A stretch of DNA of 41,821 bases from assembly GCA_014796735.1 (NCBI GenBank), contig JAAVIG010000060.1, positions 1 to 41,821 on the forward strand, written 5' to 3'. This document shows positions 4,882 to 22,565 of the stretch, piece after piece. The first letter of the stretch is position 1, and each line of letters begins with the position of its first letter. The notes below the pieces were generated by a model that was given only the letters and a program-made list of their open reading frames with translations, did no database searches and was not told the origin of the DNA. The stretch comes from Oscillospiraceae bacterium (GTDB lineage Bacteria > Bacillota > Clostridia > Oscillospirales > Ruminococcaceae). A program made the translations under genes and the position numbers.

Positions 4882-7800
4882 GTGGATACAAAAAAGCTTG
4901 ACAAATGGGCGGAGCTGTTATTGGACACGGGAAAAAGAAACAATCTGATAAATTTCAAGGACTCCAAGACCTCGTCTGTGGAGGTGCTGTTGCCTGAGCC
5001 GCACATCTTGTTTGAAAAGCTGGACGCCGGAAGCAGCTTAGAGGTGTTTGAAACGCCCGCCGAGGATAACGTACGGCCGGAGGAGCCCGAAGAAAAGGCG
5101 GACGACAGGGAGGAGTATAAGGCAAAATACTCTCCAAAGCTGAAAAAACAAAATCAGCTGCTGATTTACAACAAAGGCGGCGATCCCAACGCCGCATTAA
5201 AAAACATAGACAAAAAGGCCGACGAATACATAGAGGAAACGGGCGTAAATGTGGCGCATATGGCGTTCGGTATGATATGCTGGCGGGAAAAGGAAAACGC
5301 GGAAGACCCGTATAAAGCCCCCTTGCTGCTGATACCCATATATATCGAGCGTAAAAAATCAAATGAGCCTTATACAATAACGTCATCGGGAGACGATGTG
5401 ACGGTGAACCCCACCTTTGCCTATAAGTTAGAGGCGGAGCACGGTATAAAACTGCCCGAGTATGAGGAGCAGGGACTTAAGGAATACCTGAATATTGTAA
5501 GAGAGCAGCTTGCGCTCCTTAAATGGCAGGTGACCGACGAGTGCAGGATAGGGATATTCTCGTTTTTAAAGGTAAACATGTACCGCGATCTTAAGGACAA
5601 CGGGAACATTATACTGTCAAATCCCAACGTGCGCATGCTTCTTGGAGAAAAGGACGCGTTTGAACAAGGCAATACGCCCACTGCCGCGAGAACCCATAAC
5701 CCGCTCATGGAGCTGCATAATGTGGTGGACGCGGACTCAAGCCAAATCGAGGCTATAGAAACAGCGCGCACGGGGGTAAGCTTTGTTTTGCAGGGACCTC
5801 CCGGAACAGGCAAGAGCCAGACAATAACAAATATGATAGCGGAGCTGTTAAACAGCGGGAAAAAGGTGCTGTTCGTATCGGAAAAGTCGGCGGCTCTGAA
5901 TGTGGTATACGACAAACTGAAACAGGCGGGCTTGTCCGAGTTCTGCCTGGAGCTTCACAGCCACAAGGCAAACAAAAAGGCCGTTATAAAGGAGCTTTGC
6001 GATACCTTAAGAATGAGCAAAAGCGCGGTGTCCGACAAGGCGGATGCGGAGCTGACCGCAAAGGAAAAGGCGCAGAAGCAGCTTGACAGCTATGCGGCGG
6101 AGCTTCACCGCACAAGGGAAAATATAGGAAAAAGCCTGTATCGGCTGTACGAGGATTACTCGGCGGTGAGAAACGCGCACGACATCGGCTGCTTTATTCC
6201 CGACATTAACGATAAAAACGGGGAATATTTCGAGGAATGTATCGGGCTGATAGAGGAGTACAGCGAGTATGTGCCCTCAATAGGCGTCGATCACAGGAAA
6301 AATTCGTGGTACGGCTACATAAATCCCGACAACTCACATCAAGCAAAAAATCAGGTCAAAACGGACTTGGACGCGTCTATAAAGTACCTTTCCGCGCTGT
6401 CCGCTTTGCAGGAGAGGATTGAAAGAAGATACGGAGTATACTGTTTAAATGTAGAGCAGACAAGACTGTGGCGTAAATTTTTCGGCTATGGCGCGGAGGG
6501 CACGGTATTGACCCCCCGATTGCTGAATATAAATGAGCTTGAAAAAGCGCAGAGCAATATCAAAAAGGCGGAGAAGCTCTGCAAGGAGATATTGACAGCG
6601 AAAGAGGAGATAGGCTCCGAGTTTGACGGCGATATTTACAGATTAGACGGCTCGGACTGTCTCAAACGGCTTACCAAGCAGTTTGACGGCGGCTTTTCAA
6701 GACTGTTTTCAAAGGAATACAAGGGTATAGTAAGTGACCTCAGACTAAGCAGAAAAAGCGGGAAAAAGCCTTCTTACGAAGAAGCGGTGAAGTATGCCCG
6801 CATACTTTCGGAGTATCAGAAAAAGCAGGGTGAGCTGAGCGAAGCGGAAAGCCTGCTGAAGGGCGTTGTGGGCAGCGCGCTTAAGGGTACGGAAAGCGAC
6901 TGGGAGAATATAAACGGGCAGACGGATTTTTTAAGGTCACTGCTGCAAACGGGCTTTTACTTCGGACGCCTAGAGACAATGACCAACGAGGAATTTGAAA
7001 GGGAGAGGACGGAATTTTCCGCGCTGTGTCAAGAAACGGACGACTGCTTTAAACTGAGGGGCGAGGAATATTCAAGACTGAGTTCATATTTTGACCCCGA
7101 GGTATTCGACCCCGACAGAGCGGATACACAGGCGGCTCTTATGAAATGCAAAACCTGTATGAGCGGAATGTACAGGTTAGATAACTGGTGCAGATTCAGG
7201 GGAATATTGAAGGAGATAGGACAAAGGGAACTGATGCCCTTTGTATACGCCGCGATGGAGGAAAACATTCCGGCGGCGGATATTCCCTTAGCTTACAAAA
7301 AAAGGCTGTACAGCGCGCAGATCGACGCAATACTGGCGCAGGAGCCTGTTCTGGCTTCATTCAGCCGTATCTCACAGGACAGAGCGGCGGAGCTGTTCAA
7401 GAAAAAGGACGTGCTGCATTTTGAGATAAACAAGGCGAAAATAAGAGCGGCTTTGTCCTCCCGCAGACCCTCCCCCGATATGGTATCCTCCGGCAGCGCG
7501 GTTTCGGTGCTGCTGAGAGAGGCGGAGAAGAAGCGCAGGCAGAAGAGCATACGCGCGCTGCTGACAGAGGCGGGTGAGCTTATACAGGTAATAAAGCCCT
7601 GCTTTCTTATGTCCCCTCTCAGTGTAAGCACATTTCTGACCTCAAGAAATATTCATTTCGATACGGTCATATTTGACGAGGCGTCTCAGATATTCCCGCA
7701 GGACGCTGCAGGGGCGATATACCGCGCCGATCAGCTTATAGTAGTCGGAGACTCAAAGCAAATGCCGCCCGGAAACTTTTTCAACGCTTCCTTGGAGGCA

Positions 7801-9480
7801 GAGGATGACGAGGAAACGGGCGACGTTACCGACTTTGAATCGGTGCTTGACCTTTGCTCGGCTTCAATGCGGCAGTTACGGCTTAACTGGCATTACAGAA
7901 GCCGCTTTGAACAGCTGATCGCTTTTTCCAACAAGAATTTTTATGACGGCAGTCTGATCACCTTCCCCTCGGCAAGCTGCGACAGGGAAGGAACAGGAGT
8001 AGATTACCATTACGTAAACGGAATTTTTGACCGCAAAAGTCACACCAACAGAGCGGAGGCCGAATATATCACGGAGCTTGTGTACAAAAACATAGAGGAA
8101 TACCCCGACAGAAGTCTTGGGGTAGTGGCTTTCAGCGCGTCGCAGCAAAATCTGATAGACAAGCTGCTGTGGGAACGCAGGCTTAACAATCCCGACAAGG
8201 AATTTTTCTTTGCAAAGGACAGGGAAGAGCCTTTCTTTGTCAAGAATCTGGAGACGGTACAGGGAGACGAGAGAGATACTATCATATTCAGCGTGGCTTA
8301 CGGCTTTGACGAGAGCGGAAAGCTTCTGCACAACTTCGGCCCCTTGAACCGCGCGGGAGGAGAAAGACGCCTCAATGTGGCGGTAACGAGAGCAAAGCAC
8401 AACGTGCAGCTTGTGTCCTCAATGCACCATACAGACATTGACCTTACCCGAACGGGAGCGGAGGGCGCAAGACTGCTTAAGGAATATCTGGACTTTGCGG
8501 AAAACGGTGATATTGCACTGCTGCAATCGTTTGATTCCAATCACCGCAATGACCGCTTCAACTCGGCGTTTGAGGCGGAGGTGGCAGAATTTCTGCGTGA
8601 CAACGGCTTTGACATTAACACACAGGTCGGCTGTTCGGGATTCAAAATAGATATTGGCTTGAAAAAACCCGACAGCGCGGATTATGTGTTGGCAATAGAA
8701 TGTGACGGCGCGTCCTACCGCTCGGCGAAAAACGCCCGTGACCGCGACAGGCTTAGACAGCAGGTGCTGGAAAAGATGGGCTGGCGATTCTGCCGCGTAT
8801 GGTCAACCGACTGGTACTGCAATAATGCGGCAGAACGGCAAAGGCTGTTGGAGACGGCGGAAAAGGCAATAAACACGCCCATGCGATATAACGAACAGAG
8901 CGAGAATGTTTACGGCGAAGATAACGGACAGAATCAGGAAGATTTCGAGGAGGAGAAAAGAGAGCACTTTGAGTTCCCGCCCTATAAGGCGGCTGATACG
9001 GATATGCTTATCCCAATCTACCGGCCAAACTACTTTAAAGCTATGGTGAAGGAGATACTGGAAACGGAAGCGCCTTTGTCAGAGGAGCTGCTATTAAAGC
9101 GCGTGCTTCCTTTCTTCAGGCGCGAAAAGGTAACGGTGTCCGTACAGAACATGTACGAAATTGAAATGAAGGACTGCGGAGAATACGGAATTATACGCAG
9201 GAACGGATTTTTGTATTATCAGGGGAACAATATACATTTCAGAGCGGCAGGCGATATTGTAAGAGAGGTAAAGCATATTTGTCCCGAGGAACTGGCGGCG
9301 GGAATTTTGGGGATATTGAAGCAGAATATTACCGCGGACAAAACCGGACTGTACAACGAGCTTGCGCGTCAGTGCGGAATAAGCAGGGCGGGCAGCACGG
9401 TGACGGATCTGTTTGATAAGGCGCTGGAGCTGTTGGGGGATAAGGTGACGGTTGAGGGGGAAATGTTGAAGTTAAAGTAG
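4882..9480 (+). CDS. DUF4011 - SF1 (UPF1-like) helicase - Vsr/MTES_1575-like nuclease - DUF3320-type protein (Hhe-like anti-phage defence)
   Basis: N-term W..LLDTGKRNNLINF (DUF4011), Walker A QGPPGTGKSQT, Walker B FDEASQ, VGDSKQMPP, HYRS, VQGDERD, RLNVAVTRAK, then SAFEAEV...IDIG...IECDG...DRLRQQVLEKMGW...WSTDW; GTG start with GGAGG RBS. Confidence 0.9.
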   Translation: MDTKKLDKWAELLLDTGKRNNLINFKDSKTSSVEVLLPEPHILFEKLDAGSSLEVFETPAEDNVRPEEPEEKADDREEYKAKYSPKLKKQNQLLIYNKGGDPNAALKNIDKKADEYIEETGVNVAHMAFGMICWREKENAEDPYKAPLLLIPIYIERKKSNEPYTITSSGDDVTVNPTFAYKLEAEHGIKLPEYEEQGLKEYLNIVREQLALLKWQVTDECRIGIFSFLKVNMYRDLKDNGNIILSNPNVRMLLGEKDAFEQGNTPTAARTHNPLMELHNVVDADSSQIEAIETARTGVSFVLQGPPGTGKSQTITNMIAELLNSGKKVLFVSEKSAALNVVYDKLKQAGLSEFCLELHSHKANKKAVIKELCDTLRMSKSAVSDKADAELTAKEKAQKQLDSYAAELHRTRENIGKSLYRLYEDYSAVRNAHDIGCFIPDINDKNGEYFEECIGLIEEYSEYVPSIGVDHRKNSWYGYINPDNSHQAKNQVKTDLDASIKYLSALSALQERIERRYGVYCLNVEQTRLWRKFFGYGAEGTVLTPRLLNINELEKAQSNIKKAEKLCKEILTAKEEIGSEFDGDIYRLDGSDCLKRLTKQFDGGFSRLFSKEYKGIVSDLRLSRKSGKKPSYEEAVKYARILSEYQKKQGELSEAESLLKGVVGSALKGTESDWENINGQTDFLRSLLQTGFYFGRLETMTNEEFERERTEFSALCQETDDCFKLRGEEYSRLSSYFDPEVFDPDRADTQAALMKCKTCMSGMYRLDNWCRFRGILKEIGQRELMPFVYAAMEENIPAADIPLAYKKRLYSAQIDAILAQEPVLASFSRISQDRAAELFKKKDVLHFEINKAKIRAALSSRRPSPDMVSSGSAVSVLLREAEKKRRQKSIRALLTEAGELIQVIKPCFLMSPLSVSTFLTSRNIHFDTVIFDEASQIFPQDAAGAIYRADQLIVVGDSKQMPPGNFFNASLEAEDDEETGDVTDFESVLDLCSASMRQLRLNWHYRSRFEQLIAFSNKNFYDGSLITFPSASCDREGTGVDYHYVNGIFDRKSHTNRAEAEYITELVYKNIEEYPDRSLGVVAFSASQQNLIDKLLWERRLNNPDKEFFFAKDREEPFFVKNLETVQGDERDTIIFSVAYGFDESGKLLHNFGPLNRAGGERRLNVAVTRAKHNVQLVSSMHHTDIDLTRTGAEGARLLKEYLDFAENGDIALLQSFDSNHRNDRFNSAFEAEVAEFLRDNGFDINTQVGCSGFKIDIGLKKPDSADYVLAIECDGASYRSAKNARDRDRLRQQVLEKMGWRFCRVWSTDWYCNNAAERQRLLETAEKAINTPMRYNEQSENVYGEDNGQNQEDFEEEKREHFEFPPYKAADTDMLIPIYRPNYFKAMVKEILETEAPLSEELLLKRVLPFFRREKVTVSVQNMYEIEMKDCGEYGIIRRNGFLYYQGNNIHFRAAGDIVREVKHICPEELAAGILGILKQNITADKTGLYNELARQCGISRAGSTVTDLFDKALELLGDKVTVEGEMLKLK

Positions 9481-9519
9481 GGGCAGCGGTTGCTGTCAAT
9501 AATAATAATAATAATATGT

Positions 9520-9554
9520 AACAGGCAGTCTTTTGAAAGGGCTGTCTGTTTTTT
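9520..9554 (+). terminator. Intrinsic terminator of the helicase gene
   Basis: AACAGGCAGTC...GGCTGTCTGTT stem followed by TTTT, 40 nt after the stop. Confidence 0.8.
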
Positions 9555-9592
9555 GTAAGAGGAAAAAGTGGGGTATAGGACAGATGTCGGGC

Positions 9593-9760
9593 GGCGGAGC
9601 CGCTTGCGAAGCAAGCTGAAATGCGTCAGCATTTCAAAATTTTCGCCAAAGGCGAAAATTTGGCTCCGCCCCTGCTGTAGGGTAGTTATTGCAAAAGGAG
9701 CAGTTTTTATTCATAGGGCGGCACAAGTTAATTGGGGGAACAAGCATAATCATACATTGC
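9593..9760 (+). repeat. Four-way-junction repeat element, copy 1 (junction 9593-9670 plus conserved tail)
   Basis: GGCGGAGCC [GCTTGC-GAA-GCAAGC][TGAAATGC-GTCA-GCATTTCA][AAATTTTCGCC-AAA-GGCGAAAATTT] GGCTCCGCC then CCTGCTGTAGGGTAGTTATTG; homologous to 21054 and 21685 copies. Confidence 0.9.
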
Positions 9761-9974
9761 ACAAAATATATGGGAACAACGCACAACATCACCAATGAAA
9801 ACAAATGATAAACAGCTAAGCACCTGCGACCCGAATGTGAATAAAACACTACTGCAAATTTCCGACATTGAACAATTCAACCAAGTTATATAAGTGACAT
9901 TTCACGCACTAATTTTATGGAGCAAAAAAACGTACCGTAAGCACTACGCAATAGAGGGGGGTAAGGAAGGGATT

Positions 9975-10139
9975 CTTAAGGTGAAACCTAAGGGGGGAGA
10001 GTGGGGCAATGAGTTTCACCGAATTTTTTGCAGTTGCTTATGTAAGCGCAATCATCATAAAGCTTGCACTATTTTTTTAGATGAAGCCACGTAAGGTGAA
10101 GCTTATTGCACCTTCGCCCCCCTTTGGTGTCACCTTAAG
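9975..10139 (+). repeat. Long imperfect inverted repeat (about 45 bp arms, 74 nt spacer) upstream of rpoD
   Basis: 9975-10020 CTTAAGGTGAAACCTAAGGGGGG...GCAATGAGTTTCACC pairs with 10095-10139 GGTGAAGCTTATTGC...CCCCCCTTTGGTGTCACCTTAAG. Confidence 0.75.
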
Positions 10140-10418
10140 CCCCGCGCGGGAGCGCATACTGCACTCGCTTCCGAGTTAAAAGAAAACATTATATAAAGCG
10201 TAGTTTTACAAGAACGGTAAAATGGCAGTTAAAGCTAAAAATAAAGCATTACATAAAACGCAGTTTTAAGAATTAAGAAAATACCGCTTTGTTGCGAATA
10301 AAACAACCGCAGCTTTACAAATCAATCAATCGGCAGCTGCTCTGAAAAGCATCTCACAGCTCAAAGCGCAGTTTTAAAAAGGCATTCCGCCGATTGAGGA
10401 AAAGAAGGGAAAGAAAAA

Positions 10419-11504
10419 ATGACGGAAAACGGAAAAAACATGATAACCGACCTTATCGAACACGGCAAAAAGGAAGGCAAGCTCACCACCAAAGAAATCA
10501 ACGACGTACTGGAGGACTTAAACTTTGACGTAGATCAAATAAACCGCCTTTACGACGATTTCGAAAGCAACAACATAGACATAGTTGACGACTTCATCAT
10601 TGACGAGGACTTAGACACCGCCCTTGATTTTACAGGCGAGGACGACTTGGACATGGCTCTGTCCACCGAGGGCATAACCATTGACGATCCCGTCAAGATC
10701 TACTTAAAGGAGATAGGCAGAGTACCGCTTCTCAGCGCGGAGGAAGAGATCGAGCTTGCAATGCGAAAAAACCAAGGCGACCAGTTCGCCAGAAAGCGTC
10801 TTACCGAAGCGAACCTCCGCCTGGTGGTAAGCATAGCCAAGCGTTACGTGGGACGCGGCATGCAGTTCCTTGATCTTATCCAAGAGGGCAATATGGGACT
10901 TATCAAGGCAGTGGAAAAATTTGACTACCGCAAGGGCTATAAATTCTCCACCTACGCCACATGGTGGATAAGGCAGGCTATCACAAGAGCCATAGCGGAT
11001 CAGGCAAGAACCATACGCATACCCGTTCACATGGTGGAGACAATAACCAAGGTAAAAAAGGTCTCCAGCCAGCTTCTCCATAAAAACGGTCACGAAGCCA
11101 GCGTTGACGAGATAGCCAACGAGCTTAACATGCCTGTTGAAAGAGTAAGGGAGATAATAAGGATAAGCCAAGACCCCGTGTCGCTGGAAACTCCCATAGG
11201 CGAGGAGGAGGACAGCCACTTGGGCGACTTTATCCCCGATGAATTGGCTCCCGCTCCCGCCGAGGTAGCTTCCCTTTCGCTGTTGAAGGAGCAGCTTGAC
11301 GAGGTTTTGGGTACCCTTACTGATCGTGAAGCAAAGGTGCTTCGCCTGCGCTTCGGCTTGGAGGACGGCAGACCCCGCACTCTCGAAGAGGTGGGGCAGC
11401 GTTTTCAGGTGACGCGGGAAAGAATACGCCAGATCGAGGCTAAGGCTTTGAGAAAGCTCCGTCACCCCACAAGAAGCAAAAAGCTTAAGGATTTTCTTGA
11501 CTGA
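10419..11504 (+). CDS. rpoD: Primary RNA polymerase sigma factor RpoD/SigA
   Basis: Region 1.2 [12 protein letters not shown], region 2 [54 protein letters not shown], region 4 RTLEEVG...[18 protein letters not shown]. Confidence 0.98.
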
Positions 11505-12006: not shown

Positions 12007-12191
12007 ATATTCCCGAAGCCTTGAACAACATGCCAAAAATGTTAACCGCAGATGCCCCAAAGCACAATAAAAATATATGGAGAAAAAGTTTGAAAGAACT
12101 TGGAAAATCGGGTTCTTTCAAACCCGTCGCCTTTGTGCCGCGAAGACAGTTTGGCACAAGGGCTCCTCAAGAGGAAAGGAATTATCTTAAT

Positions 12192-14528
12192 ATGGACATC
12201 GACCAGATCTTAAAAAAAGCCGCGAAAAAACAGGAAACACAGGGCGATAAAATTTTCGCCTTGGATATAGGAACGCGCACCGTTGTGGGCATTATCGGAG
12301 AAAAAGCCGATGAAAAATACCGTATTTTAGACTGCGTGGTAGTACCTCATACACGCCGCGCAATGGTTGACGGACAGATCGAGGATATAAAGCAGGTCGC
12401 GAAAATAGTCGGACAGGTAAAGCAAAAGCTGGAGCAGCGCAACGGCATAACCCTGACAAGGGCTTCTATCGCAGCGGCCGGACGCGCGCTTAAAACCGTC
12501 AACGTATCCAAGGAATTTGACGTTTCGGGAAGCGATATTATTACCGAGGAAATGGTGGCGTCAATGGAAATGGAGACAGTTTCCGCAGCGCAGACCGAGC
12601 TTGACGAAAGTCTTGCGAACGAAAAGACCCTGTTTTACTGCGTTGGTCATAACGTGGTGACTTACCGTCTCGACGACTATAAAATGATCTCGCTTAACGG
12701 ACACAAGGGCGCTACGGCGGGGATCGACATGGTAGTAGCTTTTCTGCCTGGGATAGTTGTGGAAAGCTTATATTCGGTAATGGAGCTTAACAAGTTAGAG
12801 GTGCAGAGCCTTACCCTTGAGCCTATCGCCGCGATGAACGTTATTATTCCCCCGGAAATACGCCTTATAAATATTGCCCTTGTGGATATAGGCGCGGGCA
12901 CCTCCGATATTGCCATAGCAAAGGACGGCTCCATTATTGCCTACGCAATGGCAACGGTGGCGGGTGATGAAATTACCGAGGAAATAATAAGAAGCTTTCT
13001 TGTTGATTTTGCGGTAGCGGAGCAGATGAAGCACGACGCCGCCGAAAACGAGGTGATTACATACAAGGACATTTTCGGTATCCCTCACGAAGCGACGCAG
13101 GAGGAATTTATCGAAAAAATACTGCCCTGTATGGATAATCTGGCGGCAACTATTTGCGACACCATAATCAAAATAAACGGCGAATCCCCTCAGGCGGTTT
13201 TCCTTGTGGGCGGCGGAAGCCTTATCAAGGGCTTGCCCACTCTTGTTGCGGATAAGTTAGATATTGACGAGGACAGAGTAGCGGTAGGCGGCGGAGAATT
13301 TCTCCGTGATGTTGACACAGGCGACTTCAATATGGGCGCGGAATTTATTACACCCATAGGAATAGGCGTTACCGCTCTTGAGGACAGAGGCTACGACTTT
13401 TCCGTAATCACGGTAAACGGCAAAAAGATAAGAGTTTTCGACACCAAAAAGCTTACCGTTTATCAGGTGCTTTCTCTCGCGGGCTACAAGGCGGGGGATA
13501 TTATGGGACATTCGGGTCAGGGACTTGCCTTTACCGTTAACGGGAATAAGGTGTTCCGCAAGGGCAGCATGATGACTCCCTCGGAAATAAAGATAAACGG
13601 CAATTCGGCAGGGCTTACCTCAATAGTTACGCAGGGCGACAATGTTGAGCTTATTCCCGCCAAAAACGGGGATAACGCGAGAGCCGTGCTGAAAAACGAG
13701 ATAAATTACAGAAAGTATCATTCGGGTACCGTAAGCTTTGGCGACAAGCAGTATAAATTCGGTATAGAGGCGTTTGTAAACGGCGTTAAAAAGCCGCCGC
13801 AGTATGAAATACAGCCACTTGACGAAATAGTGACGGGCGGAATACTCACCTTGGGCGATTTGTTAAATTCCATCGGCGTTGAGTATACGGAGGGCTTTGC
13901 CATAAACGGAGAGTATGCGGAGGAATTTGCTTTGCTTTCCGACGGCGACGTTATCACCTTAAGACTTGCTCCCGTTGGGAAAAAAGCCGTTAAAGCCGAG
14001 ACGGAAATTGCAGCCGACGAGGAAGCCTACGAGAGCTATGTAAGCGAGTCTGTAAGAAGCCAAGCGGTACAAGCTTCCGCTCCCGCTGCGGCTAAGCCTG
14101 TTACCGCACCTGTACCTGTTCATACACCCGCACCCGCTCCCGTTTCTGCTCCCGCTCAATCGGCAGCTTCGGTCGCTGCGCCCGAAATACCCCGCACTGA
14201 GTCGAGCCCCGCTTACAGCAAGTCCGATACTTCCCCTTATGTTCCGTATGCGGAGAATTTAAGCGCGTCGGATAAAAAAGCGGAGGAAGAAGAAAATCAG
14301 GGAGATGTAATTCCCGCTCTGACGCTTATGCTCAACGGCAGACCTTTGACGCTTCCCGAAAAGCGTGACGGAATACCCCATACGTTTTTGGAGCTGCTGA
14401 ATCATGTTGACATAGATACAAGAAACCCTATGGGCAGGGATATAGAGCTTACCTTAAACGGTTCGGAAATCAATTTCGGCGAGGAGCTTCACGACGGTGA
14501 CAGAGCGGTAGTAAAGTGGAAGGAATAA
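12192..14528 (+). CDS. FtsA-like actin-fold ATPase with C-terminal beta-grasp-like repeats
   Basis: Start reassigned to MDIDQIL (GAGGAAAGGA RBS); ALDIGTRTV, TLEPIAA, LVDIGAGTSD, AGDEIT, VFLVGGGS actin-fold motifs; repeated (V/I)NG..x..GD.V units in the last 330 aa. Confidence 0.85.
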   Translation: MDIDQILKKAAKKQETQGDKIFALDIGTRTVVGIIGEKADEKYRILDCVVVPHTRRAMVDGQIEDIKQVAKIVGQVKQKLEQRNGITLTRASIAAAGRALKTVNVSKEFDVSGSDIITEEMVASMEMETVSAAQTELDESLANEKTLFYCVGHNVVTYRLDDYKMISLNGHKGATAGIDMVVAFLPGIVVESLYSVMELNKLEVQSLTLEPIAAMNVIIPPEIRLINIALVDIGAGTSDIAIAKDGSIIAYAMATVAGDEITEEIIRSFLVDFAVAEQMKHDAAENEVITYKDIFGIPHEATQEEFIEKILPCMDNLAATICDTIIKINGESPQAVFLVGGGSLIKGLPTLVADKLDIDEDRVAVGGGEFLRDVDTGDFNMGAEFITPIGIGVTALEDRGYDFSVITVNGKKIRVFDTKKLTVYQVLSLAGYKAGDIMGHSGQGLAFTVNGNKVFRKGSMMTPSEIKINGNSAGLTSIVTQGDNVELIPAKNGDNARAVLKNEINYRKYHSGTVSFGDKQYKFGIEAFVNGVKKPPQYEIQPLDEIVTGGILTLGDLLNSIGVEYTEGFAINGEYAEEFALLSDGDVITLRLAPVGKKAVKAETEIAADEEAYESYVSESVRSQAVQASAPAAAKPVTAPVPVHTPAPAPVSAPAQSAASVAAPEIPRTESSPAYSKSDTSPYVPYAENLSASDKKAEEEENQGDVIPALTLMLNGRPLTLPEKRDGIPHTFLELLNHVDIDTRNPMGRDIELTLNGSEINFGEELHDGDRAVVKWKE

Positions 14529-21053: not shown

Positions 21054-21236
21054 GGCGGAGCCGCCGAATTTTCGGAGAAAATTCGGCACCTTTCTCAGCG
21101 TAGGCTGAGAAAGGGCAAATTCCCGTTAGGGAATTTGCGGCTCCGCCCCTGCGGTGGGGCAGTTTTTGGGTAGGAGCAATTTTTGCGGATGGGGTGGCAG
21201 TGGTTAGTTGAGGGAGCGGCGCAGGTATACATTTGT
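21054..21236 (+). repeat. Four-way-junction repeat element, copy 2 (junction 21054-21147 plus tail)
   Basis: GGCGGAGCC [GCCGAATTTTC-GGA-GAAAATTCGGC] A [CCTTTCTCAGC-GTAG-GCTGAGAAAGG][GCAAATTCCC-GTTA-GGGAATTTGC] GGCTCCGCC CCTGCGGTGGGGCAGTTTTTG. Confidence 0.9.
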
Positions 21237-21432
21237 ATGGTTTTATGGTAAAGCGGGCGGCAGAGGTTTTTAATAAAAAAGCATCTTAAAAGGAAAACAA
21301 GATGTGAAAGCAGTAAATCGGCTGCCGACTTGTGCCGATCATCAACCTCCTTTCACTTCTCCAACCCTTTCCGCTCCCCTGCTGATCAACACCGCCCGCC
21401 GACCCGTGCCAATCTCTGCCCTTACCTTTGCC

Positions 21433-21469
21433 TTATACTAATCCCACAGTTTCAAAAGGGATTAGTATT
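21433..21469. repeat. 37 bp hairpin motif downstream of parA
   Basis: TTATACTAATCCC-ACAGTTTCAAAA-GGGATTAGTATT; 35/37 identical to the reverse complement of 22708-22744. Confidence 0.85.
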
Positions 21470-21570
21470 GAACTCTTTTACAACCACCTGCCGACCTCTG
21501 CCAATCTCCTACGTTTCTCAACCCCTACCGACTTGTGCCAATGTCCTGCCAACTTCATCCGTACACCCCC

Positions 21571-21685
21571 GTTCCTGCGCAAAAACTACCCCACAGCAGG
21601 GGCGGAGCAGCATTTTTCTGACGAAAAATGCGTGGCGGCTTTCGCCGCCACGCGTTATTTTCTCCGAAAATAACGCAGCTCCGCC
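21571..21685 (-). repeat. Four-way-junction repeat element, copy 3 (junction 21601-21685 plus tail), inverted relative to copy 2
   Basis: Minus strand GGCGGAGC T [GCGTTATTTTC-GGA-GAAAATAACGC][GTGGCGGC-GAAA-GCCGCCAC][GCATTTTTC-GTCA-GAAAAATGC] T GCTCCGCC CCTGCTGTGGGGTAGTTTTTG. Confidence 0.9.
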
Positions 21686-21731: not shown

Positions 21732-22565
21732 TTAAAACTCCTGCTCCTCAGGCAGCGGGTGTTTCCTCGGTCTTCCCCTGCCCTGCTTCTTCTCGACTCT
21801 TACAGGCTTTTCCATACCCAATACCTCATAGATCAGATCGGTATATTCCTTAGCCGCCTTAGACTTCGGCGCATACTCCATAATGGTCTTTGCGTGCGCG
21901 GGAGCCTCCGCGATAACAACACTGTTGCTTATCTTCTGCTCAAACACATCGGTATCCAGCTGCTCCGCGATCATATTAGCCAAGTCCTCCACCTCTTTGG
22001 TGAGAATAAGCCGAGGATTATACTTGTTAAGCAATATTCCCCTTATCTCCAGCGACTTGTTATAATATTTTTTTACCGCGAAAATAGTTTCCTTAAGCTG
22101 AGCGATTCCCTGTAAAGAAAGTATCTCGGGCACCATGGGTATAATAAGCTCGTTAGCCGCCGTATAGGCGTTAATGGTAAGAATGGACAGCGCGGGCGGC
22201 GTATCTATTATAATGAAATCGTAGTCCTTCTCAACATAGCTCAGCTGTTCTCTCAGTATATATTCTCTCCCGACAGTTGTAAGCTCCAGTTCGCAGCCCG
22301 ACAGCAGAATATTTGCGGGCACCACATCGCAGCAGCCCACATGCTGAACCGTGTCGTAAAGGTTTACGGAACCCTTGAAGACGTCATATATGGTATAGCA
22401 CTCGTCCGCGTCCGCACCTAAGCTAAATGAAAGATTCCCCTGCGGATCCAGGTCTATCGCCAGAACCCTGTTGTTCATCGCGGTAAGACATCCGCAAAGC
22501 GAGCTGCATGTGGTAGTCTTTCCCACACCGCCTTTTTGATTTGTAACGGCAATTACCTTCGCCAT
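21732..22565 (-). CDS. Orphan ParA/Soj family ATPase with C-terminal GRGRPRK (AT-hook-like) tail
   Basis: Deviant Walker A NQKGGVGKTTT, IDLDPQGNL, DFIIIDTPP, EAPAHAKTIMEYAPKSKAAKEY; no parB adjacent. Confidence 0.93.
   Translation of the reverse strand: MAKVIAVTNQKGGVGKTTTCSSLCGCLTAMNNRVLAIDLDPQGNLSFSLGADADECYTIYDVFKGSVNLYDTVQHVGCCDVVPANILLSGCELELTTVGREYILREQLSYVEKDYDFIIIDTPPALSILTINAYTAANELIIPMVPEILSLQGIAQLKETIFAVKKYYNKSLEIRGILLNKYNPRLILTKEVEDLANMIAEQLDTDVFEQKISNSVVIAEAPAHAKTIMEYAPKSKAAKEYTDLIYEVLGMEKPVRVEKKQGRGRPRKHPLPEEQEF

What the first reader, a model, noticed from the sequence alone, without database searches (positions are those of the whole stretch)
9593..9760. Novel four-way-junction (Holliday-like) element family with variable hairpin arms and ssDNA-type loops
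Seen: three copies (9593-9670 +, 21054-21147 +, 21601-21685 -) share a closing stem GGCGGAGC/GCTCCGCC and a 3' tail CCTGCKGTRGGGYAGTTWTTG...AGGARC (about 90 nt alignable between copies 1 and 2). Each encloses exactly three perfect Watson-Crick hairpins, abutting with 0-1 unpaired nt, whose sequences and lengths largely differ between copies. All nine loops close with C-G and, read in tail orientation, are GAA, GTCA, AAA / GGA, GTAG, GTTA / GGA, GAAA, GTCA. Established: cGNAg triloops (e.g. GCGAAGC) and cGNNAg/cGNABg tetraloops are extra-stable classes in single-stranded DNA; 8 of 9 loops fit, and the stems have no G-U pairs. Inference: a structure-selected, strand-specific ssDNA element (REP-like HUH/Y1 transposase substrate, priming signal, or junction decoy) rather than a terminator or tRNA. 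Best candidate here for an undescribed system.
Basis: partly seen in the sequence, partly recalled or inferred. Interest (0 to 1): 0.9.

Follow-up and report, generated by a model that had tools for sequence, protein, structure and literature searches.

The report
Four-armed mobile DNA with mutation halo
This bacterium carries about 30 copies of a gene-less repeat that starts with a four-armed hairpin predicted to fold in single-stranded DNA, is present or absent at the same sites in close relatives, and has neighbouring genes that are G-rich on one strand at silent positions, likely because that strand is repeatedly left exposed there.

Summary
The three junctions are 3 of about 30 intergenic copies in this genome. 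Each is the left end of a larger element: about 200 nt in short copies, 616-810 nt in long ones (window 9590-10400), which add a central hairpin and a fixed right end. Relatives keep the fold, closing stem and tail but replace the arms. Loops are DNA-type (GNA 39, GNYA 45, GNRA 7, UNCG 0 of 126). Sites are filled in some relatives and empty in others. No Rfam match, target duplication, REP guide or flanking transposase was found, so the mobiliser is unknown. Added here: host genes 5' of the junction are G-rich at silent sites on the junction strand (skew +0.40 within 300 nt, fading over 1 kb, either gene orientation). This is partly lineage-acquired and is seen in four relatives. Best reading: a non-autonomous element recognised as folded single-stranded DNA, whose junction recurrently leaves its 5' flank exposed. 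The scan has noted four-armed repeats and such halos before, on other genomes. I found no published description.

The parts
9590..10400 (+). Full-length element, copy 1 (about 810 nt, gene-less), between a DUF4011/AAA helicase gene and rpoD
   Evidence: BLAST against own genome; alignment of 16 long copies; 17 copies with both ends span 616-810 nt
9593..9670 (+). Four-way junction, copy 1 (main subfamily)
9671..9762 (+). Conserved G-rich tail ending in the ATACATTG motif; short copies stop soon after it
9975..10139 (+). Central long imperfect hairpin (module C), with about 27-nt conserved arms and an exchangeable interior; also the core of related repeat families in relatives
10144..10155 (+). 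Conserved mini-hairpin with a GGGA loop after the central hairpin
10378..10400 (+). Conserved right-end motif; its CTCCGCCG/TTCCGCCG core is a partial inverted repeat of the left end; 32 matches in the genome, 30 after merging tandem ones
21054..21147 (+). Four-way junction, copy 2 (long-arm subfamily); short element
21148..21235 (+). Tail of copy 2
   Evidence: 85 nt at 74% to copy 1
21601..21685 (-). Four-way junction, copy 3; short element, tail-to-tail with copy 2. The parA-to-next-gene gap is 722 nt here against 119 and 93 nt in the two closest relatives
21545..21600 (-). Tail of copy 3
8900..9480 (+). 3' end of the DUF4011 gene: G-rich halo on the junction strand (GC skew rises from about 0.1 to 0.43 toward the element)
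   Evidence: four-fold sites +0.55
10419..10960 (+). 5' half of rpoD: C/A-shifted against relatives without an element here (T>C 17 vs C>T 9, G>A 11 vs A>G 2 against G008)
21732..22150 (-). 3' half of parA: G/T-shifted on the copy 3 strand against G001, whose site is empty (A>G 14 vs G>A 5; C>T 13 vs T>C 2)

Best explanation
This is a family of gene-less DNA elements, present at some sites and absent at the same sites in relatives, whose left end likely folds on one strand into a four-way junction that a protein supplied from elsewhere likely recognises by shape, and whose 5' flank is likely left single-stranded again and again. Shown: the family, its anatomy, arm replacement with the fold kept, DNA-type loops, presence/absence at orthologous sites, and a G-over-C excess at silent sites 5' of the junction. 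Inferred: when the GNA-loop strand is unwound (at a fork or during repair) the junction snaps shut. A strand-transfer nuclease of the HUH/Y1 type, or a host junction-processing enzyme, binds or cuts it, and this occasionally copies the element to a new intergenic site. Far more often, cutting or polymerase stalling there leaves the DNA 5' of the junction single-stranded until it is refilled. That biases silent sites toward G and T and promotes recombination between copies. The enzyme is not identified.
For: 28 tail matches and 33 profile hits at E<1e-7 in the genome, all 33 intergenic. In 42 junctions from four genomes, 32 have no unpaired junction base and 123 of 126 loops close C-G: cGNAg 39, cGNYAg 45, cGNRAg 7, UNCG 0. 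GCGNAGC/GCGNNAGC mini-hairpins are far more stable as DNA than as RNA (PMC13037366, passages). Compensatory pairs in the main subfamily of 41 copies: G-C/T-A 30:10 and 31:10 in arm 1, T-A/C-G 28:11 in arm 2. G126, G119, G110/G125 and the more distant G061 keep the closing stem and a branched fold with different arms. Filled/empty sites: parA gap, and further sites empty in G008 and other relatives. Halo: +0.40, +0.24, +0.15, +0.04 at 0-300, 300-600, 600-1000 and 1500-3000 nt; +0.37 for same-strand and +0.45 for opposite-strand genes; 23 of 27 loci positive; random intergenic anchors 0.025 +/- 0.052, maximum 0.156 in 300 draws. 56 gene sides facing a family end average +0.28, against +0.014 for 1042 other intergenic sides, +0.027 for 98 sides of a small repeat and -0.039 for 18 sides of the second four-way family. 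At homologous silent sites within 400 nt, differences run toward G/T in this genome 135:76, 161:103, 156:100, 154:86 and 148:102 against five relatives, and near 1:1 at 1.5-3 kb. Left-flank skew is +0.36 in G001, +0.37 in G126 and +0.39 in G110/G125, but -0.15 in G008 and -0.31 in G119/G132, where the loci were anchored on the central hairpin. The exposed strand becoming G-rich matches the lagging-strand-template pattern (PMC6263442, passages). Copy 1 sits on a synteny break: four relatives show a gene running into rpoD (dnaG by recall of the operon), and G001 has another neighbour after DUF4011.
Against: No mobilising gene was found: PF01797 in 6 genomes, PF01541 and PF02486 in 10, PF04986 in 5 with a control that did not ring. 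No target duplication (longest direct repeat 4.9 vs 5.0 nt in mismatched pairs, 17 copies), and the left boundary is blurred: about 190 extra nt at one site. Two 'empty' sites in this genome may be deletions rather than pre-insertion sites. Silent-site divergence is hardly raised near elements (0.31 vs 0.31; 0.305 vs 0.26-0.30), so the halo is a shifted spectrum, not a hot spot. G rises much more than T, which plain deamination does not predict. Four relatives keep part of the skew at the same sites (+0.14 to +0.20 against +0.26 to +0.32), only 9 of 14 anchors lean the expected way, and beyond 3 kb G125 still gives 539:446. Strict polarisation with outgroups was weak. The right flank is inconsistent: C-rich after long copies (-0.37), about flat after short ones (+0.10), G-rich in G126 (+0.33). 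G061 shows only +0.12, and 5 short G001 loci show none on 29 sites. The second four-way family without a halo is younger (nearest-neighbour identity 0.975 vs 0.897), so age is a confound. Copies and genomes are related, so counts are not independent.
Confidence: 0.5

Rival explanations
1. A passive fragile repeat with no dedicated enzyme: host nucleases (SbcCD, RecU; names recalled) cut the folded DNA, resection exposes both flanks, and repair from other copies spreads, fuses and erodes the repeat.
For: No mobiliser found; blurred ends; mosaic modules and tandem ends; G-rich left and C-rich right around long copies is the resection geometry; skew in both inferred replication orientations; synteny breaks at 2 of 3 testable long copies. 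In yeast, inverted repeats raise mutation in flanking genes through breaks and resection (PMC3681665, abstract).
Against: It does not explain why a gap-free junction with C-G-closed GNA loops is kept while arms are replaced. Other hairpin repeats in the same genome have no halo. G126 right flanks are G-rich, not C-rich. Divergence is not raised.
Confidence: 0.2
2. A priming signal: primase loads at the junction on the single-stranded template, as at the phage G4 complementary origin or ssiA, and error-prone primer extension marks the DNA 5' of it.
For: The same mini-hairpins (GCGAAAGC, GCGTTAGC) occur at G4, St-1 and alpha3 priming sites (PMC13037366, passages) and in these loops. Synthesis from such a primer would run into the 5' flank, where the halo is. 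In G126 the upstream gene is co-oriented wherever one is present.
Against: In this genome the strand is not tied to gene direction (18 of 33 left ends on the majority coding strand) and the halo is as strong or stronger when genes run the other way (+0.44 vs +0.29; gene direction on small contigs is a rough proxy). It does not explain how copies spread.
Confidence: 0.12
3. A REP/BIME-type repeat of a RAYT (TnpA-REP) gene that is missing from these draft assemblies.
For: Assemblies are incomplete (77% and 86%).
Against: No GTAG/GGAG guide 5' of the stem in 27 copies; no RAYT-like gene near a junction in genomes up to 96-99% complete; long copies far exceed REP size (21-65 nt, PMC6006769).
Confidence: 0.12
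4. A structured RNA (non-coding RNA or mRNA-end stabiliser) that was amplified.
For: The sequence also folds well as RNA (z -9 to -12); 21 of 30 right ends face a same-strand gene, often a few bases before its start.
Against: GNYA loops outnumber GNRA 45 to 7 with no UNCG; 1 G-T in 1437 pairs, though the detector penalises mismatches; no Rfam hit; promoter-like sites at chance level (2 vs 1.7).
Confidence: 0.06

Closest known systems
REP/BIME/REPIN repeats with RAYT (TnpA-REP, Y1 HUH) (PMC6006769, passages; other papers seen in the listing only)
   Same: Intergenic, many copies, folded single-stranded DNA, inverted and tandem pairs, non-autonomous.
   Different: Four-way junction instead of one hairpin; no GTAG/GGAG guide; no flanked Y1 gene found; up to 810 nt with a central hairpin and a separate right end.
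Bacterial MITEs and cruciform repeats (Correia/NEMIS, bcr1, Nezha) (PMC3184786, passages)
   Same: Gene-less, highly structured, filled and empty sites, compensatory changes.
   Different: Only a short partial inverted repeat, no target duplication, blurred left end, one-ended short copies, DNA-type rather than RNA-type loops, longer than the 200-400 bp given for MITEs.
Phage G4/St-1/alpha3 priming origins and ssiA (PMC13037366, passages)
   Same: Same mini-hairpin loop sequences in single-stranded DNA.
   Different: Chromosomal, dispersed and closed into a four-way junction; no fixed tie to gene direction in this genome; no priming shown.
attC sites and candidate ssDNA motifs such as DUF1874, GEBRO (PMC5737381, passages); Clostridiales-1 motif RF01699 (PMC2864571, table row)
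   Same: Structure kept with little sequence; PMC5737381 calls a branched ssDNA structure rare.
   Different: Not arrayed between cassettes, not on plasmids, no Rfam match.
GRINS (PMC8256042, passages) and replichore GC skew (PMC6263442, passages)
   Same: Local G/T versus C/A skew strongest at third codon positions.
   Different: Here the skew lies in single-copy host genes outside the repeat, is anchored on one end of it and fades over about 1 kb.

Membership tests
REP/RAYT | GTAG or GGAG guide at the 5' foot of the hairpin | tested here: not met
   27 copies show variable bases ending mostly in GC before the stem
REP/RAYT | A tnpA-REP gene flanked by the repeat | tested here: inconclusive
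   None in G000, G001, G109; 13 Y1 loci in G008, G125, G061 have no junction nearby; assemblies are drafts
REP/RAYT | Many extragenic copies | tested here: met
   33 of 33 profile hits intergenic
MITE | Terminal inverted repeats | tested here: inconclusive
   Only a 7-9 nt core is shared, inverted, by the two ends; short copies lack the right end
MITE | Target-site duplication | tested here: not met
   4.9 vs 5.0 nt in mismatched pairs, 17 copies; copies are old, so short duplications could have decayed
MITE | Filled and empty sites in relatives | tested here: met
MITE | An IS with the same ends | tested here: inconclusive
   No multi-copy transposase among assembled proteins of 150 aa or more; DDE families were not searched
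IS91 / rolling-circle or Rep_trans element | Y2 transposase or Rep_trans gene next to the ends | tested here: inconclusive
   5 Rep_trans loci carry no part of the element; the Y2 search had a silent control
Rfam families incl. Clostridiales-1 | Covariance-model match | tested here: not met
   0 at gathering score in the window; 0 at E<=1 over 9500-10420; only sub-threshold hits over copies 2-3
Priming signal (ssi, G4 origin) | Primase-dependent priming on single-stranded DNA | not testable with these tools
   Needs biochemistry; orientation proxy argues against
Type I toxin-antitoxin | Conserved small hydrophobic ORF under coding selection | tested here: not met
   Differences by codon position 121/106/107, 30 synonymous vs 95 non-synonymous, frame not kept in several of 13 copies; no Pfam hit

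The most novel reading that the evidence does not exclude
A class of bacterial mobile DNA that is read by shape alone: a single-stranded Holliday-like junction recruits junction-processing enzymes, spreads without a transposase gene of a known type, and rewrites the silent sites of neighbouring core genes on one strand over about a kilobase.
Probability: 0.25. Interest if true: 0.85.

Novelty: new variant of a known kind. Interest (0 to 1): 0.62.

Why it matters
Natural branched single-stranded DNA elements are rarely described (PMC5737381 says so for its one candidate), and how many gene-less bacterial repeats spread is still open. This family gives a compact test object: an 80-95 nt junction whose arms change freely while the geometry is fixed, with filled and empty sites and a measurable one-strand footprint in core genes such as rpoD and parA. 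If the footprint is caused by the element, a repeat can set the local direction of mutation in neighbouring genes, which bears on codon-bias and GC-skew analyses and on the unexplained origin of GRINS-like skews.

Tried and rejected
Type I toxin reading of the 23-codon ORF at 10009-10080: rejected. The central-hairpin pattern gave 0 in viral contigs; both metagenome scans gave 0; plasmids and phages gave 0. In 300 other genomes of the class, 7 had 1-3 closing-stem matches, none of the 10 fetched loci was a junction, and none had an expanded family. GIY-YIG search found one long protein per genome (609-638 aa, UvrC-like by recall); elements lie near it in G000 and G001, read as chance among about 30 copies. 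Sequencing runs: 20 runs with small shares; the four laid were contigs only, and the one RNA run showed the same depth pattern as DNA runs, so expression was not tested; they show related copies with many internal length variants. Strict parsimony polarisation was too saturated to decide. The first covariation regex matched nothing and was fixed. Two of the 32 left anchors (C133, C180) are not profile hits and may be false; they were kept in the skew counts. No covariance model was built. DDE, DUF559 and PD-(D/E)XK families were not searched. Literature searches that found no description. Supplements of PMC2864571 and PMC5737381 were not read and may hold motifs that are not in Rfam.

Full report
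Observation. Each folds into a closing stem of 8-9 pairs and three perfect arms of 6-11 pairs with 0-2 unpaired junction bases. z-scores are -8.5 to -12.9. A structure-only scan finds 43 junctions scoring 30 or more in the 2.37-Mb assembly and none in 10 shuffled genomes. The window is bacterial, with flagellar genes, rpoD and parA. Related titled records are Oscillospiraceae and Clostridia.

The family. The genome has 28 tail matches and 33 profile hits at E<1e-7, all intergenic and mostly among core genes. Sixteen of the 33 run off a contig on the tail side, because the junction is the left end of a longer repeat. Long copies are 616-810 nt (17 with both ends). They have the junction, a G-rich tail, an A/C-rich spacer, a long imperfect central hairpin with an exchangeable interior, a GGGA mini-hairpin and a fixed right-end motif. 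Short copies, such as window copies 2 and 3, stop about 100-130 nt after the junction. The two ends share a short inverted core. There is no target duplication and no REP guide. The small ORF inside the central hairpin is not under coding selection.

Distribution. The tail pattern was found in 2 of 36 sampled genomes of the genus, and parts of the long element in 8 of 107. G001 has 27 closing-stem matches, G126 has 12 tail matches with different arms, some in tandem, and G110, G125 and G119 have divergent or more branched junctions ahead of the same tail and central hairpin. G008 has one junction copy and a large sister family with the central hairpin but other, TTAAG-type ends. A more distant Clostridia genome, G061, has 40 closing-stem matches, nearly all reading as junctions with the same loop types. 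None of 300 other genomes of the class had an expanded family with this stem.

DNA, not RNA. Across 42 junctions, 123 of 126 loops close with C-G; cGNAg 39, cGNYAg 45, cGNRAg 7, cGNABg 2, UNCG 0. GCGNAGC and GCGNNAGC hairpins are much more stable as DNA than as RNA (PMC13037366, abstract and passages); the GNAB class is recalled, not read. Compensatory changes occur within the main subfamily, and the closing stem itself varies in matched pairs between genomes. Rfam has no match. Expression could not be tested.

Mobility. The parA gap holding copies 2 and 3 is 722 nt here and 119 and 93 nt in relatives with 97% identical ParA. Other sites are empty in G008 and further relatives. In four relatives a gene runs directly into rpoD, while this genome has DUF4011, the element, then rpoD; G001 has an element before rpoD too, but after DUF4011 it has a short copy that lost most of its junction and a different neighbour. 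Many insertions are shared with G001 and copies are about 83% alike on average, so the family is old. No mobilising gene was found.

The halo. Host genes 5' of the junction are G-rich and C-poor at four-fold sites on the junction strand: +0.40, +0.24, +0.15, +0.08, +0.04 with distance, in genes of either orientation, 23 of 27 loci. After the right end of long copies the same strand is C-rich (-0.37, -0.26, -0.06; 22 of 26 loci). Other intergenic sides and two other repeat families show nothing. The left halo is present for short and long copies and in both inferred replication orientations, and in G001, G126 and G110/G125, but not beside central hairpins in G008 or G119/G132. At homologous sites this genome has moved toward G/T within 400 nt against five relatives, by about 1.5-1.8 to 1. 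Against this: four relatives keep about half the skew, 9 of 14 anchors lean the expected way, divergence is not raised, the right side differs between genomes, G061 is weak, and the halo-free second family is younger. I found the halo, before seeing the scan's earlier notes on similar halos.

Mechanism. A strand exposed as single-stranded DNA becomes G-rich (PMC6263442, passages). The constant signal is exposure of the GNA-loop strand 5' of the junction. That is the geometry of a block or cut on that strand; by inference it is opposite to rolling-circle displacement, an origin or outward transcription. I therefore read the element as non-autonomous mobile DNA whose folded end is recognised by shape, with recurrent stalling or cutting as the source of the halo and of rearrangement (0.5). 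Rivals are a passive fragile repeat handled by host repair (0.2; PMC3681665, abstract), a priming signal (0.12), a REP of an unassembled RAYT (0.12) and an RNA (0.06).

Comparison and novelty. It works like a REP or MITE but fails the guide and target-duplication tests, and no cognate gene was found (PMC6006769 and PMC3184786, passages). Branched ssDNA motifs are called rare in PMC5737381 (passages). GRINS are the nearest published skew (PMC8256042, passages) but lie inside duplicated coding DNA. PMC6429828 and PMC2864571 (passages) gave nothing closer. Six searches found no description; the library lacks most subscription papers and I read no supplements. The scan has no look-alike of this sequence but has noted four-armed repeats and halos on other genomes. 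Verdict: a real, apparently undescribed family; a new variant of the structured gene-less repeats; interest 0.62.

Noticed in passing
G000:C21:5602-5781, C49:9698-9877, C53:1061-1240, C115:3661-3840, C158:9971-10150, C51:4389-4567 and others: A second family: two four-way junctions around a short fixed spacer, with TA-ended inverted repeats; 19 junctions; younger, no halo; also in G001 and G118. It looks like a MITE of the ERIC/BOX/Correia type (recalled).
   Followed up: partly
window 21435-21468 and 22709: Short member of a third, about 120-nt TA-type palindromic repeat that also inserts into the studied element (L015, L173) and is very abundant in G109 and G110.
   Followed up: partly
window 21320-21560, minus strand: Four to five copies of an about 16-nt G-rich motif between copies 2 and 3, next to parA; could be binding sites or tail duplications.
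   Followed up: no
L162, L398, L399 (G008): Sister repeat family with the same central hairpin but different arms and TTAAG-type inverted ends, more than 50 matches; no halo.
   Followed up: partly
G061, e.g. L265:292-369, L267:6587-6663: About 40 short four-way junction repeats on longer stems in another Clostridia genome that has many IS200-type Y1 genes, none beside a junction.
   Followed up: partly
L502, L505, L508, L509 (G126): Tandem direct copies with a period of 165-171 nt, and G-rich flanks on both sides.
   Followed up: partly
window 10378-10419 and other right ends: Right ends often lie a few bases before a ribosome-binding site and start codon, so rpoD and other core genes must be transcribed from or through the element.
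   Followed up: no
window 12021-14528: 835-aa FtsA-like protein carrying a ThiS/ubiquitin-like domain, after an Rrf2 regulator.
   Followed up: no
window 4882-9480: DUF4011-AAA helicase-MTES_1575 nuclease-DUF3320 gene sits where relatives have another gene before rpoD; a tblastx with those relatives' upstream DNA found no match at E<1e-30 in this assembly.
   Followed up: partly
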